This document shows, in pieces, positions 20,236-43,000 of a DNA stretch of 64,000 nucleotides; position 1 is the stretch's first letter; the number at the start of each line of letters is the position of its first letter. The DNA lies in assembly GCF_036588685.1 (NCBI RefSeq), contig NC_086382.1:64666001-64730000 (forward strand), given 5' to 3'. The translations under genes were made by a program, and so were the position numbers. This DNA is from Mytilus trossulus. Its lineage: Eukaryota. Under the pieces are notes generated by a model. That model was not told the origin of the DNA. It saw nothing but the letters and a program-made list of their open reading frames with translations, and did no database searches.

Positions 20236-23200
20236 ATGCTAGTAAGTAGTTTTTCCTGTTACACTTTATCTAAGAATATTTTTTGGGAAAGTTTGTGATA
20301 TTAACAATAAATTTATACATATATATATAAATTAATTAAGTAAATAGTAAATTGTTTGAACATAAGAAAAGTAGAATTAATACATACTGATTAGAGAATA
20401 ATTCCTTCGAATGTCCATATCCTTAGCAATGAATAAAATACTCGTTGTTAACTAAGTATTTTCGTTATAAAGATTCGCTGTGATTTTTGTAAATGTAAAT
20501 TTTTTAGTTAGCACCTCATTATTTTATATTTAGATTTTGCATTAAACAGACCTAATAAACAGGGCATCATTTTAAAAGTTAATATATCACTTGAACAATA
20601 ATTTAATGTGCATATAGTAAACGTAAAGTATATATGCAAAATTTGATTGCAGAGCACAACTGCAAACAGCAATGCAGCTACTGAAACAAGTATGGGCATT
20701 ACAACAACGCGAGCAAAATATACACAGTACGGATCTTATAGAAGTCGCGTGTCTACCTTCAGTGATATGAGAAGTAATATTATACAGTCTAAGGAAATAC
20801 TAGCACGTGCTGGGTTCTTCTATACAGGTTTGTTTCCATAGATAGAAAGGGTAGTTTTTGAAGCTTGAATAAAATATTGACTATAGAACACAAACAAAAG
20901 CGTGAATAAAATTTTGACTATAGAACACAAAAGCTAGATTAAAGTTTTGACTATAGAACACAAAAGCTTGAATAAAATATTGACTATAGAACACAAAAGC
21001 TTGATTAAAGTTTTGACTATAGAATACAAAATCTTGAATACAATTTTGACTATAGAACACAAAAGCTTGATTAAAGTTTTGACTATAGAATACAAAATCT
21101 TATATAAAAATTTGACTATAGAACACAAAAGCTTGAATAAAATATTGACTATAGAACACAAAAGCTTGATTAAAGTTTTGACTAAAGAATACAAAAGCTT
21201 GATTAAAATATTGACTATAGAACACAAAAGCTTATATAAAATTTTGACTATAGAACACAAAAGCTTGAATAAAATATTGACTATAGAACACAAAAGCTTG
21301 ATTAAAGTTTTGACTATAGAACACAAAAGCTTGAATAAAATTTTGACTTTAGAATACAAAAGCTTATATAAAATTTTGACTATAGAACACAAAAGCTTGA
21401 TTAAAGTTTTGACTATAGAACACAAAAGCTTGAATAAAATATTGACTATTGAACACAAAAGCTTGATTAAAGTTTTGACTATAGAACACAAAAGCTTGAA
21501 TAAAATTTTGACTATAGAACACAAAAGCTTGAATAAAATATTGACTATTGAACACAAAAGCTTGAATAAAATTTTGACTATAGAACACAAAAGCTTGATT
21601 AAAGTTTTGACTATAGAATACAAAAGCTTATATACAAATTTTGACTTTAGAACACAAAAGCTTGAATAAAATTTTGACTATAGAACACAAAAGCTTGATT
21701 AAAGTTTTGACTATAGAACACAAAAGCTTAAATAAAATGTTGACTATAATACACAACAGCTTAAATATTTTTTTTACTATGGAACACAAAAGCTTGATTA
21801 AAATTTTGAAGATTTACAAACACAAATATACATCATAGTGTATTTATATATAGTTCTGTAATGTGTTTTGTATCATTACTTGATATATCAGTAATACACA
21901 ACATCGACGTTTATTATACACAGTTGTTGCCATTATATTATTATAGCTATTATTTACCAAACATTTAAAAGAAGGCAAGAATTGAATCAAATTATTAAAA
22001 TGTAAATGTATTATTTTAAACACTTTAGGAACAGGCGATCTTGTTCGGTGTTTTTACTGTGGGGGAGGTTTAAGAAACTGGGACAGATCAGACGACCCGT
22101 GGACAGAACATAAACGATGGTTTCCTAAATGTGATTTCCTCAACAAATTTTCGGATAGGGAACAGACCAATTCAGAAAACAATGTTTCAGCCCAATACGA
22201 ACGTTCGGTGAGTGAAATTTGAATACGTCAGTTTTTTTCTCAATTATAAATATTTTGATGACACAGTACATCTCTTATACAGTTTGAGGCTTTAAAGGAA
22301 AACTGAAAATTTGCTTCATTTATTGCAACTTCATTTTTTTGTACAAACTATTCTAGTTAAAAATAAGGTACATCTTAAATTGGAACTGTAAGTTTACACT
22401 GACTGGTTCTCTTAATGAATCAGATATTGAAACAAAACACAATGAATAAAAATCAAAAATCAAGAATAACATATTGAAACAGAAAAAAATCGAATTACTA
22501 TTTGTATATTTTTTATAAGAAATGTGCCAGTCGCTTTTAATTCTAAAGCTGATATGAAAAATTATGGCATACAATTATTGACTGTTTTTTTTACTTAATT
22601 ATAACTGGTGAAATGTTTGAATAAACCTTGTCGAATATGTTTTAACAGCTTCAGTTGCCAATATACATCGGCCAAGATATCGGAGAAAGTGGCGAGAACA
22701 CAGTTACTCTAGATCCAGGAAATACCAATCTTGACATCATCATTGCAGCCAAGGCAGTACTTCACTTAGGATATAATCGGTTGGATGTCAGAAATGCATT
22801 GGATTTATGTAGCAAAGAAACGAGTTGTAAGTAAACAGTTACATTACGACGATACAAGTTTACAACCTACGTTGCTTTGTCATTCTGTCGATAACGAATG
22901 TCAGAAAACATAAATTGTGTAGGTGCATTCCAGTTGTATTCACACAGGAACAGAAGTGTGATGCCATATTGGTTAGATTTATGAATCAACTCAGGACCAT
23001 CAGCTAAATTTCCAACAGATTTGAATTAAAAATCGTTTTAATATATAAAAAAAAGATGTGGTATGATTGCCAAATGTAACAACTATCCACAAAAGACCAA
23101 AATTACGAAGTAACTACAATCCGTTTCCCTTCAAGTCATGAATGTGACTTAGCAAACCAGACTATTTACCGGATTTGTTATTACATAAGCAACACGGCGG

Positions 23201-24521
23201 ATTCCACATCTGGAACAGGATCTGCTAACCCTTCCGGAGCATCTGATATCACCCTTAGTTTTTGTTTGGGTTCGTGTTGATTATTCTTTGGGTTTCTTTG
23301 TTGTGTCATGTGTACTTTTGATTGTTTGTTTGTCTTTTTCATTTTTAGCCATGGCGCTGTCAGTTTATTTTCGATCTATGAGTTTGACTGTCCCTCTGGT
23401 ATCTTTCGTTTCTCTATCTTTTATCTAAAGTGTAAACTTTAAATAATAACGTTGCCTAGCTACAATAAATAACCTGTAACAATACATATACCAATACACA
23501 AACTATCGCCCCATAATTAACATTTTACCTATATAATGAGTTTGCCTTCTAAAGGAATCGTTATATATAATATAACGCTTTACCTTCACATCAAAATCAT
23601 TGTACTCTTGAGTTATTTATTTCCAAATCATTAAAATTTCAGCTTTGGAATTGAGCTAATTAAAATGATTTTAAAAAGATATTTTCTTGGGAATAGTGAT
23701 TTTTAAATATTTAATCTAATTGTTTTATTTATAGCAACACATGTAACAGCACTCCAGTTATTGACAAAAATATTACAATTGAAACATATACTAGAAAGCG
23801 ACAGTGAAGACAGTCCGAATGGAAGTCGGACACAAGAAAATGATGACTCTTTTATTGAGATTGGTATGTATATCTTTGTACATGGCTGGTACTTACAGTT
23901 AAAATATTAATGATTTTATTTTTGTGCGATTGAAATTAAGAGTGAATTATTAAAATAATCTTTTATAACTAAGTAATGTTAGAGCAGAGATACAAGGAGT
24001 AACTATCATTAGCATTACACTTTATTAAGGTTATGATTTTATTTTTGGTATCAGCATTTTTAGTAGTTTGACAATGGAAATTAGGAACACAATGTATTTC
24101 AAAGAGGCAACAACCCTATCAAAAGTATCCAAGGCAATCAATAGGTATTCAACGGAGTGAGAAAATCCCGTACCCGGAGGTGGGCCTCATGTTTTATTGA
24201 ACAAAATACGATGTTCCAATATATCTTTAAAATATTTGCAGTTGTTAGTTTTTGATTCTGTATTGTGAGTTGTGATTGTTGATGTATTTTCATAGGAAGT
24301 TATTGTTTTCTTGACTTGTGATTGAACATCTAATTTCAGAAAAAGAAAATATTGATTTGAAAGATAAATTTTTCTGCAAAATTTGTCAACAAACTTCAGC
24401 GGAAGTGGCTTTCTTACCATGTGGACATTTAGTGACGTGTCAAGACTGTGGACCTGCAGTGAAATATTGTATAGTTTGTAAAACTCTTGTGAAGGCCACT
24501 GTGAAAGTGTTTATGTCCTGA
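20236..24521 (+). CDS. Inhibitor of apoptosis protein (IAP-B): single BIR, UBA, RING; 282 aa
   Basis: Exons 20236-20241, 20653-20827, 22029-22207, 22649-22826, 23735-23863, 24340-24521 (849 nt, GT-AG, phases consistent). BIR: [11 protein letters not shown]...[47 protein letters not shown]-like [23 protein letters not shown]: CKICQQ...PCGH..TCQDC...CIVCK...VFMS*. The start could instead be the Met at 20692. Confidence 0.9.
20866..21810. repeat. 33-bp minisatellite, ~28 copies, in the IAP-B intron that splits the BIR domain
   Basis: Unit TTGACTATAGAACACAAAAGCTTGA(A/T)TAAA(A/G)T(T/A); the 11-aa periodicity of the overlapping ORFs confirms 33 bp. Confidence 0.95.
23043..23415. mobile_element. 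SINE tail joined to the 3' end of a Penelope-associated repeat
   Basis: 23043-23102 matches the start of the 11161 copy; 23105-23415 is the reverse complement of 46555-46855 and 59366-59670. Confidence 0.65.
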
Positions 24522-28080: not shown

Positions 28081-31000
28081 ATGACACAGTTCGTCAGCTG
28101 GTTACTGATATTATTTTGTAAGTAGTAACTTATACTGTTCAACTAAGTAGCCTTATGCTTTGAAATATTTAAGATTTTTCAGATAAATGTTACAATGCAT
28201 TATATGTAAATGCACAAATGTGTAAGTGTAATGAATCAAGAAAATAGTGTACGACTGCTTTTGCACAATCAATTTCCATCACAGTCTAATCACGTGACCC
28301 TCTGGATGTTAAGCAACTAACAATTTTAAGTCAATCTGATCACGGGGACTACTATATATATATAAAAAAACAATTGAGGACTACTTCTGACAATTATTGT
28401 ACTATGACAAATGAAGTTTTAAGACTTGATTCGTCAGAGAGGTAGAAGGATTCTACTTCTTAAGGGTGATAGGAAAGTTTTTTCTCTAATATATTATGGT
28501 TGCTTAGTCGATAGATGGGACATCATAATTATATACTCTAAATCTTTTAATCAATCATACACTGATATAAATAACGCACGAGTTTCATGTGGTGTTAAAA
28601 CATGATTTTGCATAAATGAATAGCAATGACAATGTCGAATGGTGCAATAAAATTAAAGGACAAACATGCGAAGTTTAAACAGAAAAAGCAACTTTTAAAA
28701 AAGTACACAAAAGTTGAAGATTGGACAATGCGATCCATGCAAACACTGTCGGGAGTTTATATAAGTGGTCAGAAGGGATAAACAGTGCTTTGGCTTTGTT
28801 TGTTAATTACATGTATGTAAACATACATAAATGATACGGTTACTAATGTACGGAAGTATATCAAACGGCCTTGTACAACCTGATAATGTGACATATATAT
28901 ATATCTATCATATTACTACTAGCACGACTGAGTAAACGATAATAACAATTTATAATATACTGGCGATGTTCACGTGTACAGTACCTGTCATGTACATATT
29001 GTACTAGAACTAGAATAAAGAAAATATAAATAATATTCAGATGACTGTAAACAGCTATTTTGTTCGGGGGATGCATCAATGTAATAAGGGGGGAAAGTTC
29101 TTAACTAACCGAAGAAGGGACAGTTCTGCAGTGAGGACAATTTAGTTTATTAATTTTGAGCCTATTTGTTTTAAATTAGCGTCATGGTGGATATACATAA
29201 CAATTTTGCCACTGGACATTACACTAACAGCCAGTCAATGAATCGATTGCAGAAATCCCTTAAGTTCTGATTATTTCCATTTGTAAGTTACAATGAAGGA
29301 AAAATTTGATGGCCAATGGAAATTCAATCATAAACCAGAGCAAAAACATTAAAAAAACAACTTGTTGATTTTAACTTTGAATGGTCATATTCATATGAAT
29401 CATTATACAGATATTTTAAGTATCTTTGGTTTATTTATTTAGACTACATTGTCGTTGTGTGATCCATCTGCACAATATTCCTTATCTCAGCTCTATTAAT
29501 GTTTGTTTTAACAATTAATACATTCTATTATGAACAAGTTTGTCGTGTCTTAGAATCAAGCTTGAAAGATCGTTAAAACGTCTAGGTTTTTTGTTTTGTT
29601 ACTCGTTTTCTTTAGGTGTCGATACGAATGGACACGAGATTAGCCAACAACGTTTCGACTCGATCCCAGTAGAAAGTTATAACATAAAGAGAGAGAATTG
29701 TGTAACTGTAAGTCAATATTTTATTCAAACTGTCATCTTTATTATATTTGCAAATGTTATTATAAGGATATTACGGTATTGTAATTAGTACTGATTTCTT
29801 CTGGAAAATGAATCTAACTTTATTATCATCTGCCTGCATTTACTTCTTTAAATTTTTTTATTTAAAATGGATATTTCGTGGAATTTTATAGTTGACTAAG
29901 CGGTATGGGCTTTGCTCGTGGTTGAAGCCCTTCCTTTTCTACAATATTATATAAATAAACAATTACTTGGGACATGCTGCAAACTCACATCAATATCAAG
30001 TGTAAACCATAGATTTTTCTTCACTTTTGTTTTATTGCTGCTGTGCATGAACTGTTTTTGTGTCATGGATAATAACCCCATATCCACTATCTTATATCAT
30101 GAAAAATATTTGAACTAATTTATATCAACTGCCTTTCGTATTTTCTTTCAGAATAGCGTCACATCAAATCGTTTGTCTGAAGTGAGAAAATTATTTGACA
30201 AAAACAATGTAGATGCTTACATAATTACAGCTGACGATGTACATATGGTTAGTTTGACAATGTTTAGAAATTAATACTATAAATAAAATACAAATTCCAT
30301 GTATAAGAAATGGAACCTTTTAAAAATATAATAAAAAAGTTGGCCAGAAAAAAACGCAGTGTCAGCTACTTAAACGACGTCTGGACTAATGACAAAGGGT
30401 CAAAATAGAGAATTTTCCATAATGCAAAATCATTTATAAATTTGTCCGTTGCACCAGACACATATGATACAATATAGCAAGGACTTATATACGTCCCTGA
30501 ATATACGTTTATGAAATCACAGAATATTTACATAATAGTTATTGTAAAAAAAAATGGTCGTAATCGTAATATAAGGGCTGCCCACAGGACAATGAATAAA
30601 CTGAAACGTCGGCATGCAACGTCCTATGAGAATGAACAAATAAAATGTTTGACATACACCTATTTCTTACAAAATGAATAATAAGCATGGCCAATGTCAG
30701 AATGTTCTTAATATTTGAAGAAATACAACAAAACATCTCTCATTCGATTTTTAAGAATGTGAATTTTAGCATGGATACAATTTGAGGAACCTTCATTACA
30801 GAATAATGGATCGTTGGTGGTCGGTTCAAACCCATTTTTCTATTATTCATTATTAATTCAAAATCAAATCGATGACATTGTATATTGTAAATGTGAAAAC
30901 GTCTACAAAATTAACACAGGAATAATACTTTTGTTTTGATTATAACAAGACTTTGGTAAATTTCTATTAGTCTTTTTGTTGGAATATTAGCAATACCCTT

Positions 31001-34000
31001 AATTTCTCTAATTATACCTAATGATCTTTTTGCTGTTTTCAGTACATTATCTATATGAGTATTGCAAGTCAGTTTTTGGTCAAGTGTAACTCCAAGAATT
31101 TTGGGATTGTTGTTGTGTTTTAAAGTTCCATTACCAAGCTTAAGTAGAACGAATGTAGTATTTTGTATATTTTTACTGAAAATACAATATTCTGTTTTTT
31201 CTACACTCACTTTCATCCTCCATTTGTTGCTCCATTCATTCACCTTGTCAATATCTGTTTGAAGATCTTGTTGTAGAATATTGATGTCCTCACCTGTGTG
31301 CCATATGGTTGCATCATCTGCAAATTTACATTTCTGTGCCAGAACGGTCTGAAAAATATCTGCTATAAAGATGTTGAACAAAATAGGGGATAAGACTGAA
31401 CCTTGTGGTAATCCTGTATGTGTTTTAAATAGTTCTCCTTTTGTGTTGTTGATGTTGATTACTGCTTCACGGTTATTTAAAAAAGAATGAACCCAATTCC
31501 AGATTTTTCCTTTGATTCCATATTGATAAAGTTTTACTAATAGTCCTTCTCGCCATATACTGTCATAGGCTTTTTCAAAATCAATGAACAAAGCAAGCGT
31601 AATCATTTTCTTGTTGAATCCCCCATATATTGATTGGATGAGTGACAATAAAGCATTGACTGTTGATCTGTATTGTCTAAATCCTTCCTGTTCATTATCA
31701 ATGATGTTGTTGGTTTCAACATATTCTTCTATTCTTATAGAACTATTCTTTCCATCAGTTTGGATACTACACTGGTTAAACTAATTGGCCGGTATGCTGA
31801 AGGGTTATTGTAACTAAGTTTGTGTGCTTTCTTCAAAAATTTTACATTTGCCATTTTCCAATTTTGTGGAAGTATTCCTTCTTCCCATGATCTGTTCATA
31901 ATTTCTAATAATTTGTCTAAAAATTCTTTTCCAGCATTAATAAACAGCTCTGGAAAAAATCCATCTGGTCCTGGTGCAGTTTCTTTCTTTAGTCTGAAGA
32001 TGGATCCTTCCAATTCATCCATGGTAATACTTTGGTTATATTTGTCATCATCCATTTCTTGGTTGTCACTATCTAATGTTATGTTGATGTATTCTTTAGT
32101 TGTTTCCTCATAAAACTTGTTGTCAAATTTTCTTGGGTCTAGGTGTTTTCCTCCAAAAAATACTTTTTCCAATTCCTTTGACTTTTCTTTCTCCTCGAAA
32201 ATTACATTGCCATCATATTTTATGAAAGGAAGTACCTTGTTGTCTGAGGTTTTCTTGGTTAATTTTTTGAAAGCTCCCCATCTTTCCTTTGGTGTTTTTC
32301 CTGATCCTATCACGTCACATAGTGTTGTTGACCATTCATTTTGGGCTTTATCTTTGATTACTTCTAAGTTCTCTTCCGCATCTATTATTTTATTAAAATT
32401 TTGAGGGATACTTCGTTCTTTAAAATGTCTCTGTGCCTTGTTTAACTCTTTTTTTGCTAACTTTACATCTTCATTCCACCATACAGAATGTTTAACTTTT
32501 GGTCTATTTTGATGATATTTATATTTCGGTATACATTTCGGTTCCATACATGCTGTCATACAACTTTCAAAACATTCATACCATACTTCCAAAGAGTCAT
32601 CATCTTTCAAAAGCATATCTTTGAAATATTCTTCTGTGGTTTCCTTCCACTCTTCCCAATTGATATGATCCTGGTTAAGTTGGCGCGAAATAAATATTCT
32701 TACTCCTATTGCTTCATGTAAAAAAAAAAATATAAAATTGAATTCGACTACAGTTCAGCATAAAAAAAACGTGAATATGCAAAAGCCAGGTAATATGTTA
32801 ATGATAAAGTGTGTATAAGTTTTCTTAAACGAAGTTACCCGTATAATTATCAAGAATTACATTTGAGCGCAAAGTTCTGTATGTGGTTTACCAACCAGGT
32901 TTATGTAACATTTATAATTTAGACTGGGATCCTGGCTAATCTTGACCTTACGACGCGCAGCTAGATTGGACCGGATCCCAGGCTAATGTAACATCGTAAA
33001 ACTCAGGGTAACGGAATTTTTTGCGTTGCTATAAGATCATTAAGGCCATCTATTTTTATTGCGGGTTCCACATATTTAAATCGGAATTATAGAAAAAATG
33101 GAATGTTGTGAGCAGAATCAAAACAGAAATGATGAATACTGCAACATTTCCAGCAAAATATAAATAGGATGGAGGATCTGTGTACTCACATTATTTGTAA
33201 AACTCTCCTTATTCATGTGAAGCGTGTGCTTTACATCGAGGCTTATTCTTTACATCGAGGCTTATTATGCTAATCATCGACGCCACAGTACTTCAACCAA
33301 TCAGACAATGTTTATTTGGGGCATTCGATCGATTTTAACTCAGATTTTGGAATATTTCAATCGAAATTATAGAAGAATGGAATGTTGTTAGTACATATAA
33401 AATAGAAAATGATGAATACTTTCAGCTAAAGATAATTTGGATGGGGGTTCTGTGTATTCACATTATTTGCACAACTCTCCTTACTGATGCCATATATTGG
33501 AATTTCCGTGACCTAAATGGTTCGCGAAAATTAATATTTTTATATATAGTATAGTAAATAAACGTAGGTGAAAAACCGTCAAAATAGGTGCAATTTTATA
33601 CCCTCACGTTATAAATATAAATAATAAGCTGGTACCTTTGATAATTATTTGCAACTGACAAACGGTAAGTAAAGAATAATACACTTCCCCATTATGTTAT
33701 ACAAGTACCCTTAACTAAGGATATGAATATGGTAAAATAGATGCCCTTTACAAAATTGAGAAAAGACTAAAAAAAGAGAAAGAGAAATCATTTGAAATTT
33801 TACAACAATTAAAATAACAAATAATGGTTTTCTCTGTCATTTTCACAGAATTAAAACTAAATAATGTAGATACTATGATGACCGCTGTTTGTATGCAAGT
33901 ATTTGAAGAAAACAAATCAATTATTTCAGCACCCTGGCTTGTCTAACATTGCCAAATGTGATAAACGTCTACAAGCAGTATCGGGATTTTCAGCAAACTT

Positions 34001-37000
34001 TGGTAATGTATTTAACTTTCAAACCATATTTCAAATAGAAATACTATAAAGAAGAAGTTTTAGTTAGTCAATAGAAAAGTATAGAGTTATACAACTTTGA
34101 GCGAGATAACACGTAGGGATTTATTACATTATTAGAGACCACCTGTACTTAGACCATACATTTTATATCCCTCTGTAGTACATTTCATATAGCTTGAACC
34201 TGCATTAAAATACCACTTGTCTGTTAAGACCATCATTTTGTTCTATCTTAAGTGTTCTTGTAATACAGGTTTCACCGTGTATCAAAAAGTAGAAAAGAAA
34301 AATAAGTCGGTGTAAATTTGAAATGTAAGAAACTTCCCATTAAAAAGCCGATTTAAAAGAGGGGACAATCTAAAGTACCAAATGTTTTTCACCATTCAGC
34401 AAGTAAGCAGATTGTTGGGAAGAATATATGTTACAAAAAGATTTGACCACTTTTATTTTAGGAATAGCCGTTGTAACAAGTACTAGTGCTTCCTTGTGGA
34501 CAGACGGTAGACATTTCAGACAAGCCGAGAAAGAGACCGATTGTGGATGGGAAATTTATAGAAAAGGTATGTCAAACAGATTTCAGTCCCTTTAGACTCT
34601 AGAAAAGGTATGCCAAAAACAGTTGTCAGTCCCTGTAGACATTTTAGTTATGAATCAAGTGCACTTGGTAAAAAAAAAACTCAGAAAATATATATTGTAT
34701 GTGACTAATAAAACTATGGTCTTTACCAGATAGAAAGTGTGATCAATTGTAAGATAAAACCAAAATTAACCTAATGAGTAATTGATCTATACTATGGTAA
34801 TTGAATTTTCCTGCTACATTATCATTTGATGAGAATTCTACAAAGATCCTTGGAAAGTCTTCCGATGTGAAATACGAGTGTACACTGTCATCAATATATG
34901 TTTGTAAGAATGTTCGAAGATTCTCTATTGTCATTATAAATAAAGGCAACAGTAGTATACCGCTGTTCAAAACTCATAAATCCATGAACAAAAACAAAAT
35001 CGGGATAACAAACTAAAACCGAGGGAAACGTATTAAATATAAGAGGAGAACAACGACACAACACTAAAATGTGACACACACAGAGACGGACAAAGCATCA
35101 GACAAAATCCCACGAGTATAAAAAATATAACATCAAAACCAAATACATGACTTTGGGATAGACAAGTACCGTGACACGTCTTATCGCAATGTGAATTTAC
35201 ACTAAAAAATAAGAGAAAACAAAACATCGTTATACCTCAAAACACAACGAACGTATATTACGAGTGACCAGCATGTTATCGTTGATACTGCTGTTTGAGT
35301 ATAACTTTATTGGTTTGGTAAAACTTGGATGACCCTTTATCTTACAAATCATAACTTTTGATATAAAAGCGTCTTCAGAATCTTTGTCCTCATGATTTTT
35401 TGAAGAAAAAACATAAAATGATGTTTGTGTCAATGATACATGATTCTGTGATTTATCAGGTACGTGCATCATTAAAAGTAGAGAACACGTTTACTTATTT
35501 GTTTTATTACATGTTAGTTACATTATTATACTATAACTGAAGCTTTAAGGGTTGACTGTCGTTTCCTCAGTGTAACAAAACTGATTACGCTACCGATACA
35601 CCATACCACAATACACAAAAAAAGTACAGTCCTTTTTTGACAATTTTGCTGAATCTAAATCACCTCTTATGATTAATCTGAATCAAGTAAAATGGTCCAT
35701 TGCACGAATGGTACACAAAGGTGAACTTTTGTCCAAAAACCGAAAATCGTTGTCAATGCATGACGCCTATTATGATAGCAATGTCTTATAATTAAAATCA
35801 AATCTTGCAGTTTTTATCCACATTTCAATCCGATGTGTTAATATAATCATGAAAATGCATGACATATGCTTTGCTGGACATTAACAATAAACAGTTAAGT
35901 TTACCACAAAAAGGTGATTACAATTAAATTAAACTATTGTATAAAGGTGGACCAGAGGTTGTTACGGTCACAGATTGGATTATACAGAAGTTACAGACTA
36001 AAGAGGGAGAGAAAAATGTTGGATCGGCTCCAAGTTATATGAATGCTGGTAAAATATATATAAAAAAATATAATTCAAATGTTTCGACCATCAGTTAGTT
36101 AAATTAATGTAGCAAAATAAAGGTTTGGAAATCTCATTTGTGCAATCTATAGCTACTTGTTAACGAAATTTAAGGAATAGTGTCGTAAACAAATAAATTT
36201 TGATAGCTGTTACTATAAGTTCCTTTATATATTAAGACTGGGGTCACATATATAAGATCATATAATGCTGGTACAAGTATCAGCGTTTAAATTGCGGTCG
36301 CAAGCAGTACAAAAAAGCACATGTAATGAAAACATTAATATATTAAAAGTTTTATTGATGATTTACATCCTAGTTTCATTCATTTTCTATTCTGAACAAA
36401 AAATGATTATAAAATATCCGATTAAATAAACAAAATGTCAATGCATGTATTGTAGTTTGGTGGAGAAACTTCGATACAGTTTTATCCCAATCTAAGATAA
36501 GACTATTGCCAATTAATAATGATTTAGTCGACGAAATCTGGACAGATTCAAGATCCGTCCGTCCCTCTAAAGATCTCAATTCTCTGGATATAAAATATGC
36601 TGGTATGTATGCCAAGATCAGTTCGTCCCTCTAAAGATCTCAATTCCCTGGACATCAACTATGCTGGTATGTATGCTGATATTTATAGTTAATATAACCA
36701 AGATCGGTTCGTCCCTCTAAAGATCTCAATTCTCTTGATTTAAATATGATGGTATGTATGCCAAGATCGGTTCGTCCCTCTAAAGATCTCAATTCTCTGG
36801 ACATCAACTATGCTGGTATGTATGCTGATATTTATAGTTAATATAACCAAGATCGTTTCGTCCCTCTAAAGATCTCAATTCTCTTGATATAAAATATGCT
36901 GGTATGTATGCCAAGATCAGTTCGTCCCTCTAAAGATCTCAATTCTCTGGACATCAACTATGCTGGTATGTATGCTGATAGTTATAGTTAATATAACCAA

Positions 37001-40000
37001 GATCAGTCCGTCCCTCTAAAGATCTCAATTCTCTTGATATAAAATATGCTGGTATGTATGCTGTTATTTTAATAGTTAATTCGTCCTCTAAAGATCTCAA
37101 TTCTCTGGACATCAACTATGCTGGTATGTATGCTGATAGTTATAGTTAATATAACCAAGATCAGTCCGTCCCTCTAAAGATCTCAATTCTCTGGATATCA
37201 AATATGCTGGTATGTAGGCTCCTATTTTAATAGTTAATTCGTCTTATAAAGATCTCAATTCTCTTGATATAAAATATGCTGGTATGTATGGTCCCTATAA
37301 AGATCTCAATTCTCTGGATATCAAATATGCTGGTATGTATGGTCCCTCTAAAGATCTCAATTCTCTGGATATCAAATATGCTGGTATGTATGCTGTGATA
37401 TAGATAGTTAATATAACCCATATTCCAGAAAGTGACATTCATTTTTTGAATTGGTAGTTTGTCAAAATAATTGAGGACGTTTTACACATTTCATGGTCAG
37501 AATTCAGAAGAACTGTTTGGATTTACCTTCACCCAATGCCGAATATTAAGTCAAGGATGTAAAAGACCCGACTCTATTGGTGAATGAAAATGGAAATACG
37601 AATATCTTGCATGAATATTTGTTGAAAGTAAATTATGCTCTAAGAGTCCCCTGTCATCAGCTCTAAAGACGGTACTAGAAAGGAACCTTTATTTTCACTT
37701 GGTTTATATTTAAAGGATTTAGCAGGACTACTAGTTTTTTCAGTATCGACAGATTTGAAAATAAAGGATTATCTATTTATGATGTCATTAAAAAGTTTTG
37801 TACGTAATATATTATTTATTTGTCAGTAGAGATGAAAGTGATTTTCATCTTCTAATGTTTTACGTGTAAGACATGTTCTTTGGTATCGATGTATTTTCAG
37901 ATATCTACCCTTTTTATGATAAAATTAGGGTATTAATAGAGTATGGAATCTGAATCTGAATCTGCTTATTAAAACTAGATGCAAATTTAAAAGACACCCT
38001 TAACAAACATGTAAAATTATTGAATTAAAGAAAGACGAACAAAATAATAATATATAACTTGCATTGTTGTTATATTAAGGTCGTACATGGCAGGAGAAAA
38101 TTGAGGATGTTCGCAAGGAAATGACAAAAAAGAATGTAGAAGTCTTAGTAGTAACTGGCGTTGATGAAATTGCATGCAAGTATAAACAGTAATATGTTCA
38201 AATATCACTTTTACTATTATTGTTAAATGATAGACCGTTCTTGTATCATTACTTCAAATTTATTCACACAAAACAACGATATCTTTAATCTACTATTTTG
38301 TACATTGTTTTCAATTAGAAACCCACTGAGAAAAATTCCAAAAGGAGAAGCAAGAATTATAATGGAATGCGATATGTTTATTCCTTCTACTTTTATGTTT
38401 TCATCTTTAAAATGACTATCTTTTCCAAAAGAATAAAATACTAACAATTAATTCTAATTTATAAAACTGTAAATGGACTAACACCTGATTACTAAGCAAT
38501 GCTAAATATTGATGATGTGCAACACCACAATTTACGACCTGTCTCTAATAATGATCTTTTCGTTCCAAGACCAAATACAAGTTTTTATAAAAAATCTTTT
38601 CATTATTCTTTAACCAAAGTATGGAATAATTTACCACTCGAAAAAAAAAATGTCGTCATGTGGAATTCTGTAAGAAACATTGTTGTACTCATTTTCCTGA
38701 ATATTGCAAGTCAAATAATTTGTTTTTCTGTAACAAAACTTTATCAAATATTAAAGAATTACTGTCTTTTGATGAAGATAATGTGTGGTTTTATTGACTT
38801 TTGAAAAACTGATATTCACTGAGGCCAACGGCCGAGGTGAATATTTGTTGTTTTAAAAGGCAATTAAACTACAAATTTACAGAAACAAAAGACAGTAATT
38901 GTTTTATTCCATACTCTAAGAGAAATGAATGTGATGGAAAATATTTACCAAAACCAATTGTACATCAAACGTTTACACCAAAATTATACACGTAAAAGCA
39001 CGCGACGTTTTTCGCGGTGAATATCTTTGTTCCGCAGGTGAATATGCTAAAATTCTAATCCCATTCATATAGAAAAACAGTCTAATATTTTATCAATATG
39101 GAATAATGCCATTTATTACCATTTGTATATTTAAATAATTGAATTGTGTATATACTAGTTATATATATTTAAGGAATAACAGTACTGTAGTTGAAGAGTT
39201 ACCTTCGTCAATTGTAGATTTGACGGTCGCAAATGCAGTTTTACTGGCGACGCGTAGCGGAGACAGTAAAACGGAGATTTGCGACCGTCAAATCAAAATT
39301 GACGGTGGCAGCTCTTCAACTACAGTACTGTTATTCCGATTCTAATGCATTACAAAAAGAAAAATACGATAAAACTTGAAAAATGTCTAAATTTGTCAAA
39401 AAAAATCAATCCGCGAAACTTCATGAATGATTTTGGCACAAAGACATCCTGGCTAAACGTGACGTCATACACATGAAAACTTACAAACTGGAGGTTATTG
39501 CGTTACCTGTACGCTTCAAATTCGGATAAAAATACATTAAAACGGCGAATTCGAGGTAGGTGTTGTTTTATTTTCGATTATATAGTAGTTATCGAACATT
39601 TGTTGATTCATCAATTCTAAATGGCGGGTCCCACCTTAGTTACGCCTGGTCAACTGTGGATTTGACGGCAACTTTCAGCCAATGAAAAAAATTGTTACAT
39701 CCAAATTGCATTAGAATGTAATATATATTGTATTGTAATGTATGAATGTATGAATGTTAACTGTATGCATGTATTTTGTTTGAAGGCCTTAATAAAAGTT
39801 AGACTAGTTATAATTGAGTTACCCTCTTTAAATAAAGAATTTATCATTATTATTATTATTATTATTTATAAATAATAAGTTGGGTACACGTCGACGCAAG
39901 AAAGGAGTAGGTTCAGTAAGACCCCTTTTTGTCCCCGAATTATATCAGTTTTACAAAATTGGTATAGTGTAAACTTTAAGCAATTTATGGAAAGTAGAAT

Positions 40001-43000
40001 AATTTTGCTACATAAATATGGGCTGTTTTTGACGATCTAATGCACATATATTTGATACTAACATGATTAACTCATGCTAAACTCTGAAATCTGCACAATT
40101 TTAGCATTTGAGTTACATTTTAAACGGTTTTCGTCCTAAATGAAAGTGTGGCATATTTGATAGATTTTTCATATTTAAGCTTGAATGAGAGCGTCTGAAA
40201 TTGCTAGAACATTTCAAATCTTTAACACAAACTAATTGAATTGACTGATTGAATCACTTAAGTGTTTAAAAAGTGTATACAATCTTTCATTAGATGAACC
40301 TAAAACTTGAGGCCTAAACAGGCCCTTACTGGACCTACTCCTTTCATTTCTTTGCCCTTCAAAATACGTGTAAACTAAAAATACAGGGTATGCATAATGC
40401 TAGACAATCAAATGAAATAAACCAAAATTGTATAGAACATGAGTAAAGGAAAATGTTTGAAATACATCAATGAGTAATCAGATTAAAAAATCTAGGTAAC
40501 TTTTCAGGTCAACATAATATACTCAAACTTTCAGTTAATGAATTTCATATCTTTTTCAGGGCTATTCAATGTACGAGGAAAGGACTTTGCGAATAAACCA
40601 TACTTTTATTCCTTTGTTTCTATAGATAAAAACTCTGTCAGGTGAATTTTACTGTATATTGGGTTTTAAGTTTTGGTAAGAGTTCTTTTGAAGGTTATCG
40701 ATAAGAGTCATGTAGAATTGATTCATGAAGGCCAATTTAACAGTATATTTTGCAATGTTATTTGAAGTACTAGTATATGGACACGATAAAAGTATACTGA
40801 CAATTATTATTAACAACTCAAATGTTGGAAACGAAAACTATGTTCAAAATTAATCTAGGTCAATACAAATATGAATTAAACTGGTTAGGACAACGTGTTT
40901 CACAAAACCACTCTTTTGAAATTCTCAAGGTTCTTGACTTCTTTAAGTCGTATGTCAGTATGTCAGAAATTGAGCATAACCATACACATGTAATTCATTA
41001 AAAGTGAAAGAAGGATATACACTATATAAATATATTCATAAAGGCATACACTTATCATAAAGGAAAACACATATTCTCCTGTACATTTACTGTGAAACAG
41101 TTTAATACTGAGACCAGAATCGTAAGTATTAGTTACTTAGTTACTTAAACACGTATACTATCTTATGCAATGCCTTCACTTCAGAGTCTGTTGCATTTAT
41201 ACATTACCGCTGTAAAAAATGTACCATTGATACTACTTTTGATATAGGTCTTATACATGCTATTGCATTTATGTGTTTTACAGCCTATACATCATTGACA
41301 GCAAATCTAAGCTAAATAAAGTCCCGACAGATCCAGAATCAAAACAAAAATTGAAAGATCATTTGAAGACAGGTGCAGATGGCAAATGTACCGGGGAATG
41401 TGTACAGGTATTTAAAAAGTAATTAAAAATGAAAAAAAAAATGGATACAAGTACGTACTCCATACAAATTGCTTGCATCAAAATCACTCCTTCAATATGG
41501 AAATATTTGATTTTATACGATGCAGTTAATATTTAACTTTTAGGATTTCTCATTTATCAAATACTTATTATAATAAAAATAAAGTAATTCGAAATAGATC
41601 AACATAAACTAATTATTCCACACAGGTTGTTTTATTTAAAAGCACATATTCATCATTAAGTTATTTGGCTTACTATGATGATGCAATTATCAAAAGTATG
41701 TTTTTGAGATGTTCTCATTTATTTTAAAGTATTTATTACAGTTTGAAACATGTCAGTATTTTAGGCATGCAAGTTGTTTGATTTTCGTAATAAATAGCAA
41801 GAGAGAGAAACGAGAGAATCTTCGAAGTTTTAGGAATGAAAGTTGTTAATTATTCTTAACAAGAGAGATAGATTAACGTCTGCTTAATTCCTAATTCTGT
41901 TTGGTCATTTTGTCGTTTTGTAACTATAATTATAGGTAATGGAATATGATCACAATCAGTTTGCCCTCAACATAGCTTCATTAGCAAAGAAGTCAACAGG
42001 AAGAATCTGGCTGTCCTATGATTGTAATTATAAACTGTACTCTGTAATTCCAAAAGTAAGTCCTTGAGAAAAATGTGGTTATTTGAAGAATAATTGATGG
42101 TTATGTAATGTCAAGTGGCAAAAACATCTGAAAGAATAAAAAGAAATTGTTTACAGACAAGATAAAAATGATTTATCAATTATGTTATGTAAGAAAGTAC
42201 ATTCTTTCCCGTATCAGTGTACTTCAAAAAATTGAGAAACACATTTTCAACAAAAAGTTTGTTAAACAAGGCTTGAGTAAGGACTCATCTTTTCATGGCG
42301 AAATGCTCGCTAAACTTTAAGAAAGTTTAATTTTCCCGTCCAATCTTGTACTACTTATTTATAGTTTCGTTATGAAATATTCATTTTCTAGGAGTTATTT
42401 ATAAATGTCAATTTCTGTCATTCTACCTAATAAATTACAACATGAAATTGAAATTTGAATTTAAGTAAAATGAACAAATTTGCTAGAACCCACAATTCAG
42501 TTTTGGGATGTCGCATTGCGGTGATTGAAAAAACAAATTTAAACGTTATGTTCTATTCTTGTTTTTGTAACTTAATATTTGCTTATTTTTGTATACTCTT
42601 GAATTGTCAAACCGAAACAAAACTGCGCTGATTCTTGAGACTTCCGTAGGTTTGTTGTCTGCGCGTTTGTCATACATAGATAATAGTGCGTTGGTAAACA
42701 ATAACCTTCATACATATTTGAAATATATGGCAATCAATATATTTGTCTATATTGTATACTAATCTATCTAGACATTTCCTAAGAAAGAAGTTATAAAAGT
42801 GGGCTTAGAAGAAAAAATGCTAAATTGTCTGACATCTTTTTCATAATCCAATTTCAACGACTTTGTGTCAATTTCATTATTTTTACACAATATTCAGATT
42901 GTGTTCCAACATGTTAAAAAGTATATTAACATTACAAGAGAAATTCAATAAGTGTAAGTCCATAAAAGCTGACAGACCAAACGTTGTCAATCGACACAAC

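What the first reader, a model, noticed from the sequence alone, without database searches (positions are those of the whole stretch)
36548..37420. Satellite made from an exon end and its splice donor: 12 consecutive 5' splice sites
Seen: the last ~50 nt of exon 7 plus GTATGTA is tandemly amplified. G|GTATGT recurs at about 36602, 36666, 36751, 36815, 36901, 36965, 37051, 37123, 37209, 37281, 37332 and 37383. Short and long units alternate, ending with 51-nt units. Reading past the first donor hits an in-frame TAA after about 10 codons, so any downstream donor truncates the protein. Inference: splicing must pick the most upstream of 12 near-identical donors, so copy number could tune productive versus NMD-targeted mRNA.
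Basis: partly seen in the sequence, partly recalled or inferred. Interest (0 to 1): 0.7.

Follow-up and report, generated by a model that had tools for sequence, protein, structure and literature searches.

The report
Repeated splice donor in mussel aminopeptidase
In a mussel aminopeptidase gene the end of exon 7 and its splice signal are copied 11 more times into the next intron, but the RNA contigs examined join the exon at the first signal, so this is likely an ordinary new case of a repeat type known from human and lancelet genes rather than a dial for gene output.

Summary
In detail: 12 G|GTATGT donors at the stated positions (spacings 64, 85, 64, 86, 64, 86, 72, 86, 72, 51, 51), each after a copy of the last 41-54 nt of exon 7 of a Mytilus Xaa-Pro aminopeptidase gene. 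Two DNA runs from two studies carry it, so it is no assembly artefact. Splicing at donor 1 gives the M. trossulus RefSeq protein (703 of 703 residues); extension to any later donor meets TAA at 36632. In two RNA runs, 4 of 4 contigs reaching the donor join exon 7 to exon 8 at donor 1. Contigs drop rare forms, so low-level leak is untested. The build is known: human F7, CBS, LMNB2, PDGF and 6-16 minisatellites and lancelet 'mirages'. The scan has noted it before, in at least eight other genes of this genome. Tuning of NMD by copy number has no support here. One twist: variants among the copies fall mostly on third codon positions (7 of 17 against 4 of 34 sites, p=0.02, post hoc), and some also occur in expressed exon alleles, hinting at exchange between exon and copies. 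New member of a known kind; interest 0.2.

The parts
36456..36602 (+). Exon 7 (147 nt, phase 1 at both ends) of the Xaa-Pro aminopeptidase ApepP-like gene; its last 41-54 nt are the exon part of the repeat unit
   Evidence: tblastn with P0001; spliced exons 2-23 match P0009 at 703 of 703 residues; RNA contigs join exon 6 to 7 and 7 to 8
36603..36608 (+). Authentic 5' splice site (donor 1), CTG|GTATGT
   Evidence: 4 of 4 RNA contigs that reach it in X16 and X17 continue with exon 8 letters
36549..37418 (+). Compound minisatellite, 12 copies of exon end plus donor; unit lengths 64, 85-86, 72 and 51 nt; a 64+86 = 150-nt higher-order unit in the 5' half
   Evidence: multi-copy in DNA runs X1 and X3
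36632..36634 (+). In-frame TAA met when donor 1 is read through
36667..37389 (+). Eleven pseudo-donors (GT at 36667, 36752, 36816, 36902, 36966, 37052, 37124, 37210, 37282, 37333, 37384); 9 match the U1 consensus at 9 of 11 positions as donor 1 does, 2 at 8 of 11
   Evidence: no use seen in RNA contigs
37234..37383 (+). Candidate cryptic cassette exon: TAG acceptor at 37233, open and in frame to donors 10, 11 or 12 (48, 99, 150 nt); predicted only
   Evidence: not seen in RNA
37384..38079 (+). Non-repeated rest of intron 7; its first ~35 nt resemble the intron part of the 86-nt units (likely the original intron start)
   Evidence: skipped as GT..AG in 4 of 4 RNA runs
38080..38175 (+). Exon 8 (96 nt), followed by a GC donor
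   Evidence: RNA loose ends at 38176 are exon 9 letters in 4 of 4 runs

Best explanation
This is a minisatellite whose first unit straddles the exon 7 / intron 7 boundary of a mussel aminopeptidase gene; the RNA contigs examined are spliced at the first donor, and the 11 later donors are likely silent, near-neutral pseudo-sites. Shown: the anatomy, the host gene, the presence of the array in two DNA runs, donor 1 use, and the stop codon on read-through. Inferred: it began as an ~86-nt tandem duplication (last 54 nt of the exon plus the first ~32 nt of the intron); the 64-, 72- and 51-nt units arose by losses around the duplication junction; slippage or unequal crossing-over amplified them. Inferred from human F7: the first intact donor after the exon-7 acceptor wins because it defines a normal-sized exon, and rare extended transcripts carry the TAA and would be removed by NMD. 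Because the repeated block includes coding sequence, occasional exchange between exon end and copies is likely a by-product.
For: 12 donors and unit structure. Donor 1 gives the RefSeq protein exactly; 13 of 13 cluster proteins, 3 of them from Logan contigs, have no insertion at the exon 7/8 junction. 4 of 4 RNA contigs reaching the donor in X16 and X17 carry unique exon-7 sequence and go on into exon 8; RNA depth at 36625 is 0. All 4 RNA runs (3 studies) show a GT..AG joint from an exon-end copy to exon 8 and no cover at 37406-37629. DNA runs X1 and X3 show 'goes back 64' joints; X3 also shows 86-nt- and 72-nt-type junctions. Internal exons are at most 153 nt. Same build and outcome in F7, LMNB2, PDGF (PMC1557585) and lancelet mirages (PMC3087553). 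A second, two-copy donor duplication lies at exon 5 of the same gene.
Against: RNA evidence is shallow assembled contigs (depth 2-12) that drop rare forms, and NMD would deplete the very transcripts in question. The runs are RNA by the tool's guess, though they skip introns at GT..AG. X16's two contigs have only 21 letters on the exon-8 side, under the tool's 31-letter rule for bridging. Whether the RNA animals carry the array is unknown; X16's alleles differ from the window by 8 of 143 and 11 of 150 nt in exon 7. For X18 and X19 the upstream letters were not displayed, so donor 1 is inferred there. The third-position excess among copy variants is not what plain neutral decay predicts. In CBS and 6-16 two pseudo-sites are used as well.
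Confidence: 0.75

Rival explanations
1. Copy-number dial: later donors compete with donor 1, give exon-extended mRNA with a premature stop, and longer arrays lower productive mRNA through NMD.
For: 9 of 11 pseudo-donors equal donor 1 in U1 match; the TAA has 15 further junctions downstream; human CBS and 6-16 use two pseudo-sites; unit sequences differ between haplotypes; contigs could not show rare or degraded forms.
Against: No RNA contig reads past donor 1. Only donor 2, perhaps 3, gives an exon of ordinary size (211, 296 nt), so leak would depend on the first units and not on total length (inference). F7 pseudo-sites are unused while the first donor is intact. Length polymorphism is not measured here.
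Confidence: 0.07
2. Spare exon ends: the copies are kept close to coding sequence because they exchange with the working exon end (unequal crossing-over or gene conversion), so array variants enter the protein and exon alleles reseed the array.
For: Variable sites among copies 2-12: 7 of 17 third positions against 4 of 34 first and second positions, p=0.022 (8 of 17 against 3 of 34, p=0.003, as first aligned). Variants in 3 or more copies, without the TCA allele: 6 of 6 at third positions, 5 of 6 synonymous. Expressed exon alleles share array variants: TCA in 4 of 4 junction contigs; the ATC type in one X16 contig (0 differences from copy 12); one X17 contig whose difference counts fit exon 7 ending like copy 11, with Ser to Tyr.
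Against: Post hoc, small numbers, copies not independent; the conservative synonymous tally is 6 of 11, p=0.03-0.07; two of the variants always occur together and may be one event. The copy-11-like contig has depth 2 in one run, and its last variant is deduced from difference counts, not displayed. Shared variants may be old exon polymorphism captured at duplication. Copy 3 has a frameshift. None of 13 proteins shows Tyr or Asn at these sites.
Confidence: 0.25
3. Cryptic in-frame cassettes: AG sites within the units pair with the next donor to give 30-, 45- or 48-nt phase-1 exons that repeat the DLNSLDIKYAG segment, a tandem exon duplication in the making.
For: 23 open in-frame candidates; 3 of 21 real acceptors of this gene end in AAG, as the 30-nt candidates do; coding use would explain part of the synonymous excess; the lancelet paper proposes recruitment of mirage units as exons.
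Against: 4 of 4 contigs go from donor 1 straight into exon 8; no protein of 13 has the insertion; the 30-nt frame follows automatically from one AG in the copied exon end; third-position variants also lie upstream of that AG.
Confidence: 0.06
4. Assembly artefact.
For: No read or contig spanning the whole array was seen; the exact count of 12 rests on the assembly.
Against: Copies differ from one another in patterned ways; two short-read DNA runs of two studies show unit junctions and raised depth (579-732 against 36.5; 129-245 against ~25); X3's main flank contig differs from the window by 7 letters and a gap in 509 nt, so it is another haplotype.
Confidence: 0.02

Closest known systems
Human F7 intron 7 37-bp VNTR (Borensztajn et al. 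2006, PMC1557585; abstract, introduction, first Results section and Discussion read); CBS IVS13, 6-16, LMNB2 and PDGF as cited there (originals not read)
   Same: First unit spans the exon/intron boundary, so the donor is reiterated down the intron; the most upstream donor is used.
   Different: Here the unit is mostly exon (41-54 nt, against 4 nt in F7), comes in four lengths with a higher-order dimer, and every extended form meets one stop codon. Function of the pseudo-donors and length alleles are shown for F7 and untested here.
Lancelet 'mirage' minisatellites (Adh3, globins BflGb6 and BflGb9; Ebner et al. 2010, PMC3087553; passages of abstract, section 16 and supplement legends read; the Adh3 papers not read)
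   Same: Invertebrate tandem duplications of an exon/intron boundary, variable unit length, 81-100% unit identity, no interference with regular splicing reported.
   Different: Mollusc host. Somatic instability (Adh3) and copy-number difference between haplotypes (BflGb6: 6 and 3) are not tested here. The passages read report no third-position bias.
Human splicing-associated tandem repeats, spl-TRs (PMC10078293; abstract start and 7 passages seen)
   Same: Precedent that repeat length can shift splicing.
   Different: The passages seen show no reiterated-donor case; no association was measured here.

Membership tests
Boundary-spanning minisatellite (F7-type VNTR / lancelet mirage) | Tandem array whose first unit spans a real exon/intron boundary | tested here: met
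Boundary-spanning minisatellite (F7-type VNTR / lancelet mirage) | Splice signal reiterated in the intronic copies | tested here: met
   11 pseudo-donors, 8-9 of 11 U1 matches
Boundary-spanning minisatellite (F7-type VNTR / lancelet mirage) | Main mRNA uses the authentic first site | tested here: met
   4 of 4 contigs in two RNA runs; RefSeq protein identity; minor forms not visible in contigs
Boundary-spanning minisatellite (F7-type VNTR / lancelet mirage) | Copy number varies between alleles | tested here: inconclusive
   Unit sequences differ in X3; summed depth ratios differ (about 20 and 10) but the tool states they are no copy number
Boundary-spanning minisatellite (F7-type VNTR / lancelet mirage) | Pseudo-sites work when the first site is lost | not testable with these tools
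   needs a minigene or a natural donor-1 mutant
Splicing-QTL repeat coupled to NMD | Downstream donor use gives a premature stop upstream of further junctions | tested here: met
   TAA 36632-36634; 15 further junctions
Splicing-QTL repeat coupled to NMD | Downstream donors are measurably used | tested here: inconclusive
   none seen in contigs, which drop rare forms
Splicing-QTL repeat coupled to NMD | Use scales with array length | not testable with these tools
   no paired genotype and RNA reads
Xaa-Pro aminopeptidase (M24, ApepP-like), host gene | Two creatinase-N domains, Peptidase_M24 and M24_C, intact frame | tested here: met
   P0009 passes all four Pfam cut-offs; window exons give its residues 703 of 703 with no stop

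The most novel reading that the evidence does not exclude
The array is a bank of spare exon ends: recombination within the shared 41-54 nt block swaps copy sequence into the working exon and exon alleles back into the array, so an intronic repeat carries a coding-like variant pattern and feeds new alleles (such as the Ser-to-Tyr, copy-11-like transcript) into the enzyme.
Probability: 0.25. Interest if true: 0.5.

Novelty: new member of a known kind. Interest (0 to 1): 0.2.

Why it matters
On its own it matters little: it is one more boundary-spanning minisatellite in a genome where the scan has noted many. It adds a mollusc case to the rule that the first intact donor wins. If the exon/copy exchange holds, such arrays would be local sources of coding variation, and their abundance in mussels would make this testable across many loci. 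If the copy-number dial held, it would be a natural tunable NMD switch, but nothing here shows it.

Tried and rejected
Metagenome contig scan for the unit: 0 matches. Rfam, 36000-38500: no family at gathering score. Local folding: all 12 donors are similarly inaccessible (9-nt unpaired probability at most 0.032) and donor 1 does not stand out, so structure does not explain the choice. Pfam on exon 7 alone: nothing. The run search listed no holder on record as RNA; five guessed-RNA runs had small shares, four were laid. Depth ratios rejected as copy numbers. Intronic pieces laid in X18 and X19 (37640-37722, 37934-37963, 38197-38233) have many differences or loose ends and were taken as unrelated repeats. 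No earlier scan note near this place or on exon/copy conversion. In the substitution tally the copy-3 change beside its deletion and the copy-10 change beside its junction were ambiguous; both tallies are given.
Full report
Observation. The 12 G|GTATGT sites are at the coordinates given, with spacings 64, 85, 64, 86, 64, 86, 72, 86, 72, 51 and 51 nt; TRF reports the same array with periods 64, 86, 150, 72, 158 and 51. Chance gives 0.04 such sites per 800 nt. Each donor follows a copy of the last 41-54 nt of the exon. A search of G000 with exon 7 and the first units hit this locus only.

Host gene. Exon 7 found one homologue among 7 candidates, a M. edulis Xaa-Pro aminopeptidase ApepP-like protein, whose cluster has 13 members: 10 named Mytilus proteins and 3 unnamed ones from Logan contigs. 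Exons 2-23 of the window (29624-58572, + strand), spliced at donor 1, match the M. trossulus RefSeq protein P0009 at 703 of 703 residues with no stop. P0009 has both creatinase-N domains, Peptidase_M24 and M24_C. None of the 13 proteins has an insertion at the exon 7/8 junction; 10 are gene models and are not independent RNA evidence. I did not locate exon 1 in the window.

Consequence of later donors. Read-through of donor 1 adds nine residues and stops at TAA 36632-36634; 15 junctions follow beyond exon 8's start, so extended mRNA would be an NMD substrate (established knowledge, not tested in mussel). Internal exons of the gene are 51-153 nt; donors 2, 3, 4 and 12 would give 211, 296, 360 and 928 nt. 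Truncation is not the only possible outcome: 23 AG-to-donor pairs in the array would be open in-frame cassettes, and 3 of the gene's 21 acceptors end in AAG like the 30-nt candidates.

Reality of the array. On 35900-36625, DNA runs X1 and X3 (two studies, two organism labels) show depth rising from 36.5 to 579-732 and from about 25 to 129-245 over the exon end, 'goes back 64' joints, and in X3 junction letters of the 86-nt and 72-nt unit types. X1 is nearly identical to the window (1 difference in 679 nt) and may not be independent; X3's main flank differs by 7 letters and a gap in 509 nt. The depths are not copy numbers, so length variation is open.

Splicing. On 37342-38300, 4 of 4 guessed-RNA runs (3 studies) give a GT..AG joint from the exon-end copy to exon 8, and none covers 37406-37629. 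On 35900-36625, the 4 of 4 contigs of X16 and X17 that reach the donor carry unique exon-7 sequence and go on with exon-8 letters; RNA depth at 36625 is 0. X17's two contigs meet the 31-letter bridging rule; X16's have 21 letters on the exon-8 side. For X18 and X19 the upstream letters were not shown; their contigs run unbroken for 163 and 573 nt upstream, which the array's repeated 31-mers (451 of 1170 positions) would hardly allow, so donor 1 is inferred. Depth is 2-12, contigs drop rare forms, and the genotype of these animals is unknown. Folding gave no reason for the choice of donor 1.

Origin (inferred). The 86-nt unit is the last 54 nt of the exon plus about 32 nt that resemble the intron start behind donor 12, which fits one tandem duplication across the boundary. 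The 64-, 72- and 51-nt units lack about 22, 14 and 35 nt around the duplication junction; the 64+86 pair was then amplified as a dimer. Exon 5 of the same gene has a two-copy donor duplication (2 of 21 introns scanned have donor copies, none has acceptor copies).

The twist. In the exon frame, variable sites among copies 2-12 are 7 of 17 third positions and 4 of 34 first or second positions (p=0.022; 8 of 17 and 3 of 34, p=0.003, as first aligned). Synonymous changes are 9 of 13 as aligned and 6 of 11 conservatively (p=0.03-0.07; 25-29% expected). Variants in 3 or more copies are 6 of 6 at third positions. Array variants also appear in expressed exon alleles: TCA in 4 of 4 junction contigs, the ATC type in one X16 contig, and one X17 contig (depth 2, with a further difference in exon 8) whose difference counts fit exon 7 ending like copy 11. 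This suggests exchange between exon and copies, or capture of old exon alleles. The test is post hoc, copies are not independent, copy 3 is frameshifted, and the key contig is a single shallow one.

Known kin. Borensztajn et al. 2006 (PMC1557585; abstract, introduction, first Results section and Discussion read) describe the F7 array, where pseudo-donors work but only the first intact one is used, and list LMNB2 and PDGF (first only) and CBS and 6-16 (two more used). Ebner et al. 2010 (PMC3087553; passages) describe lancelet 'mirages' that do not disturb splicing. I took the mirage lead from earlier scan notes, and checked it in the paper. Those notes list eight further arrays of this build in this genome (unchecked). 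A search for minisatellite, splice donor and Mytilus together found 0 papers in the held library, and mirage, minisatellite and amphioxus found 2; subscription journals are not covered, and no supplements were opened.

Verdict. A real, new member of a known kind; donor 1 is used; the copy-number NMD dial is unsupported (0.07); exon/copy exchange is a modest lead (0.25). Interest 0.2.

Noticed in passing
window 38176-40559: Intron 8 of the aminopeptidase gene is a GC-AG intron (donor GCAAGT), the only one of 21; RNA loose ends at 38176 continue with exon 9 in 4 of 4 runs.
   Followed up: partly
window 34559-34640: The exon 5 donor is also duplicated once (period about 43 nt; second AAAAG|GTATGC near 34607), a small second case in the same gene; RNA contigs join exon 5 to exon 6 normally.
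   Followed up: partly
window 30911-32754, - strand: LINE-like reverse transcriptase remnant in intron 3, in two overlapping frames; RVT_1 E=1.6e-32 for the 3' frame.
   Followed up: partly
window about 20760-24521, + strand: Inhibitor-of-apoptosis gene upstream (BIR at 21986-22219, RING at 24315-24518).
   Followed up: no
window 20861-21809: 33-nt minisatellite, 28.6 copies, apparently in an intron of the IAP gene, starting about 30 nt behind a likely donor and without donor copies.
   Followed up: no
window 36456-36602: Exon 7 is highly polymorphic among expressed alleles: 8 of 143 and 11 of 150 nt differ from the window in X16, 2 of 112 in X17; the window's TCC at 36554-36556 is TCA in all four runs laid.
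   Followed up: partly
window 38496-38804: 102-codon open stretch in intron 8 that looks like the tail of a LINE ORF2 (recalled resemblance; no Pfam hit).
   Followed up: no
window 35933-36478, run X3: X3 holds a main haplotype (depth about 25) and a more diverged minor one (depth 6-8) at this locus; not explained.
   Followed up: no
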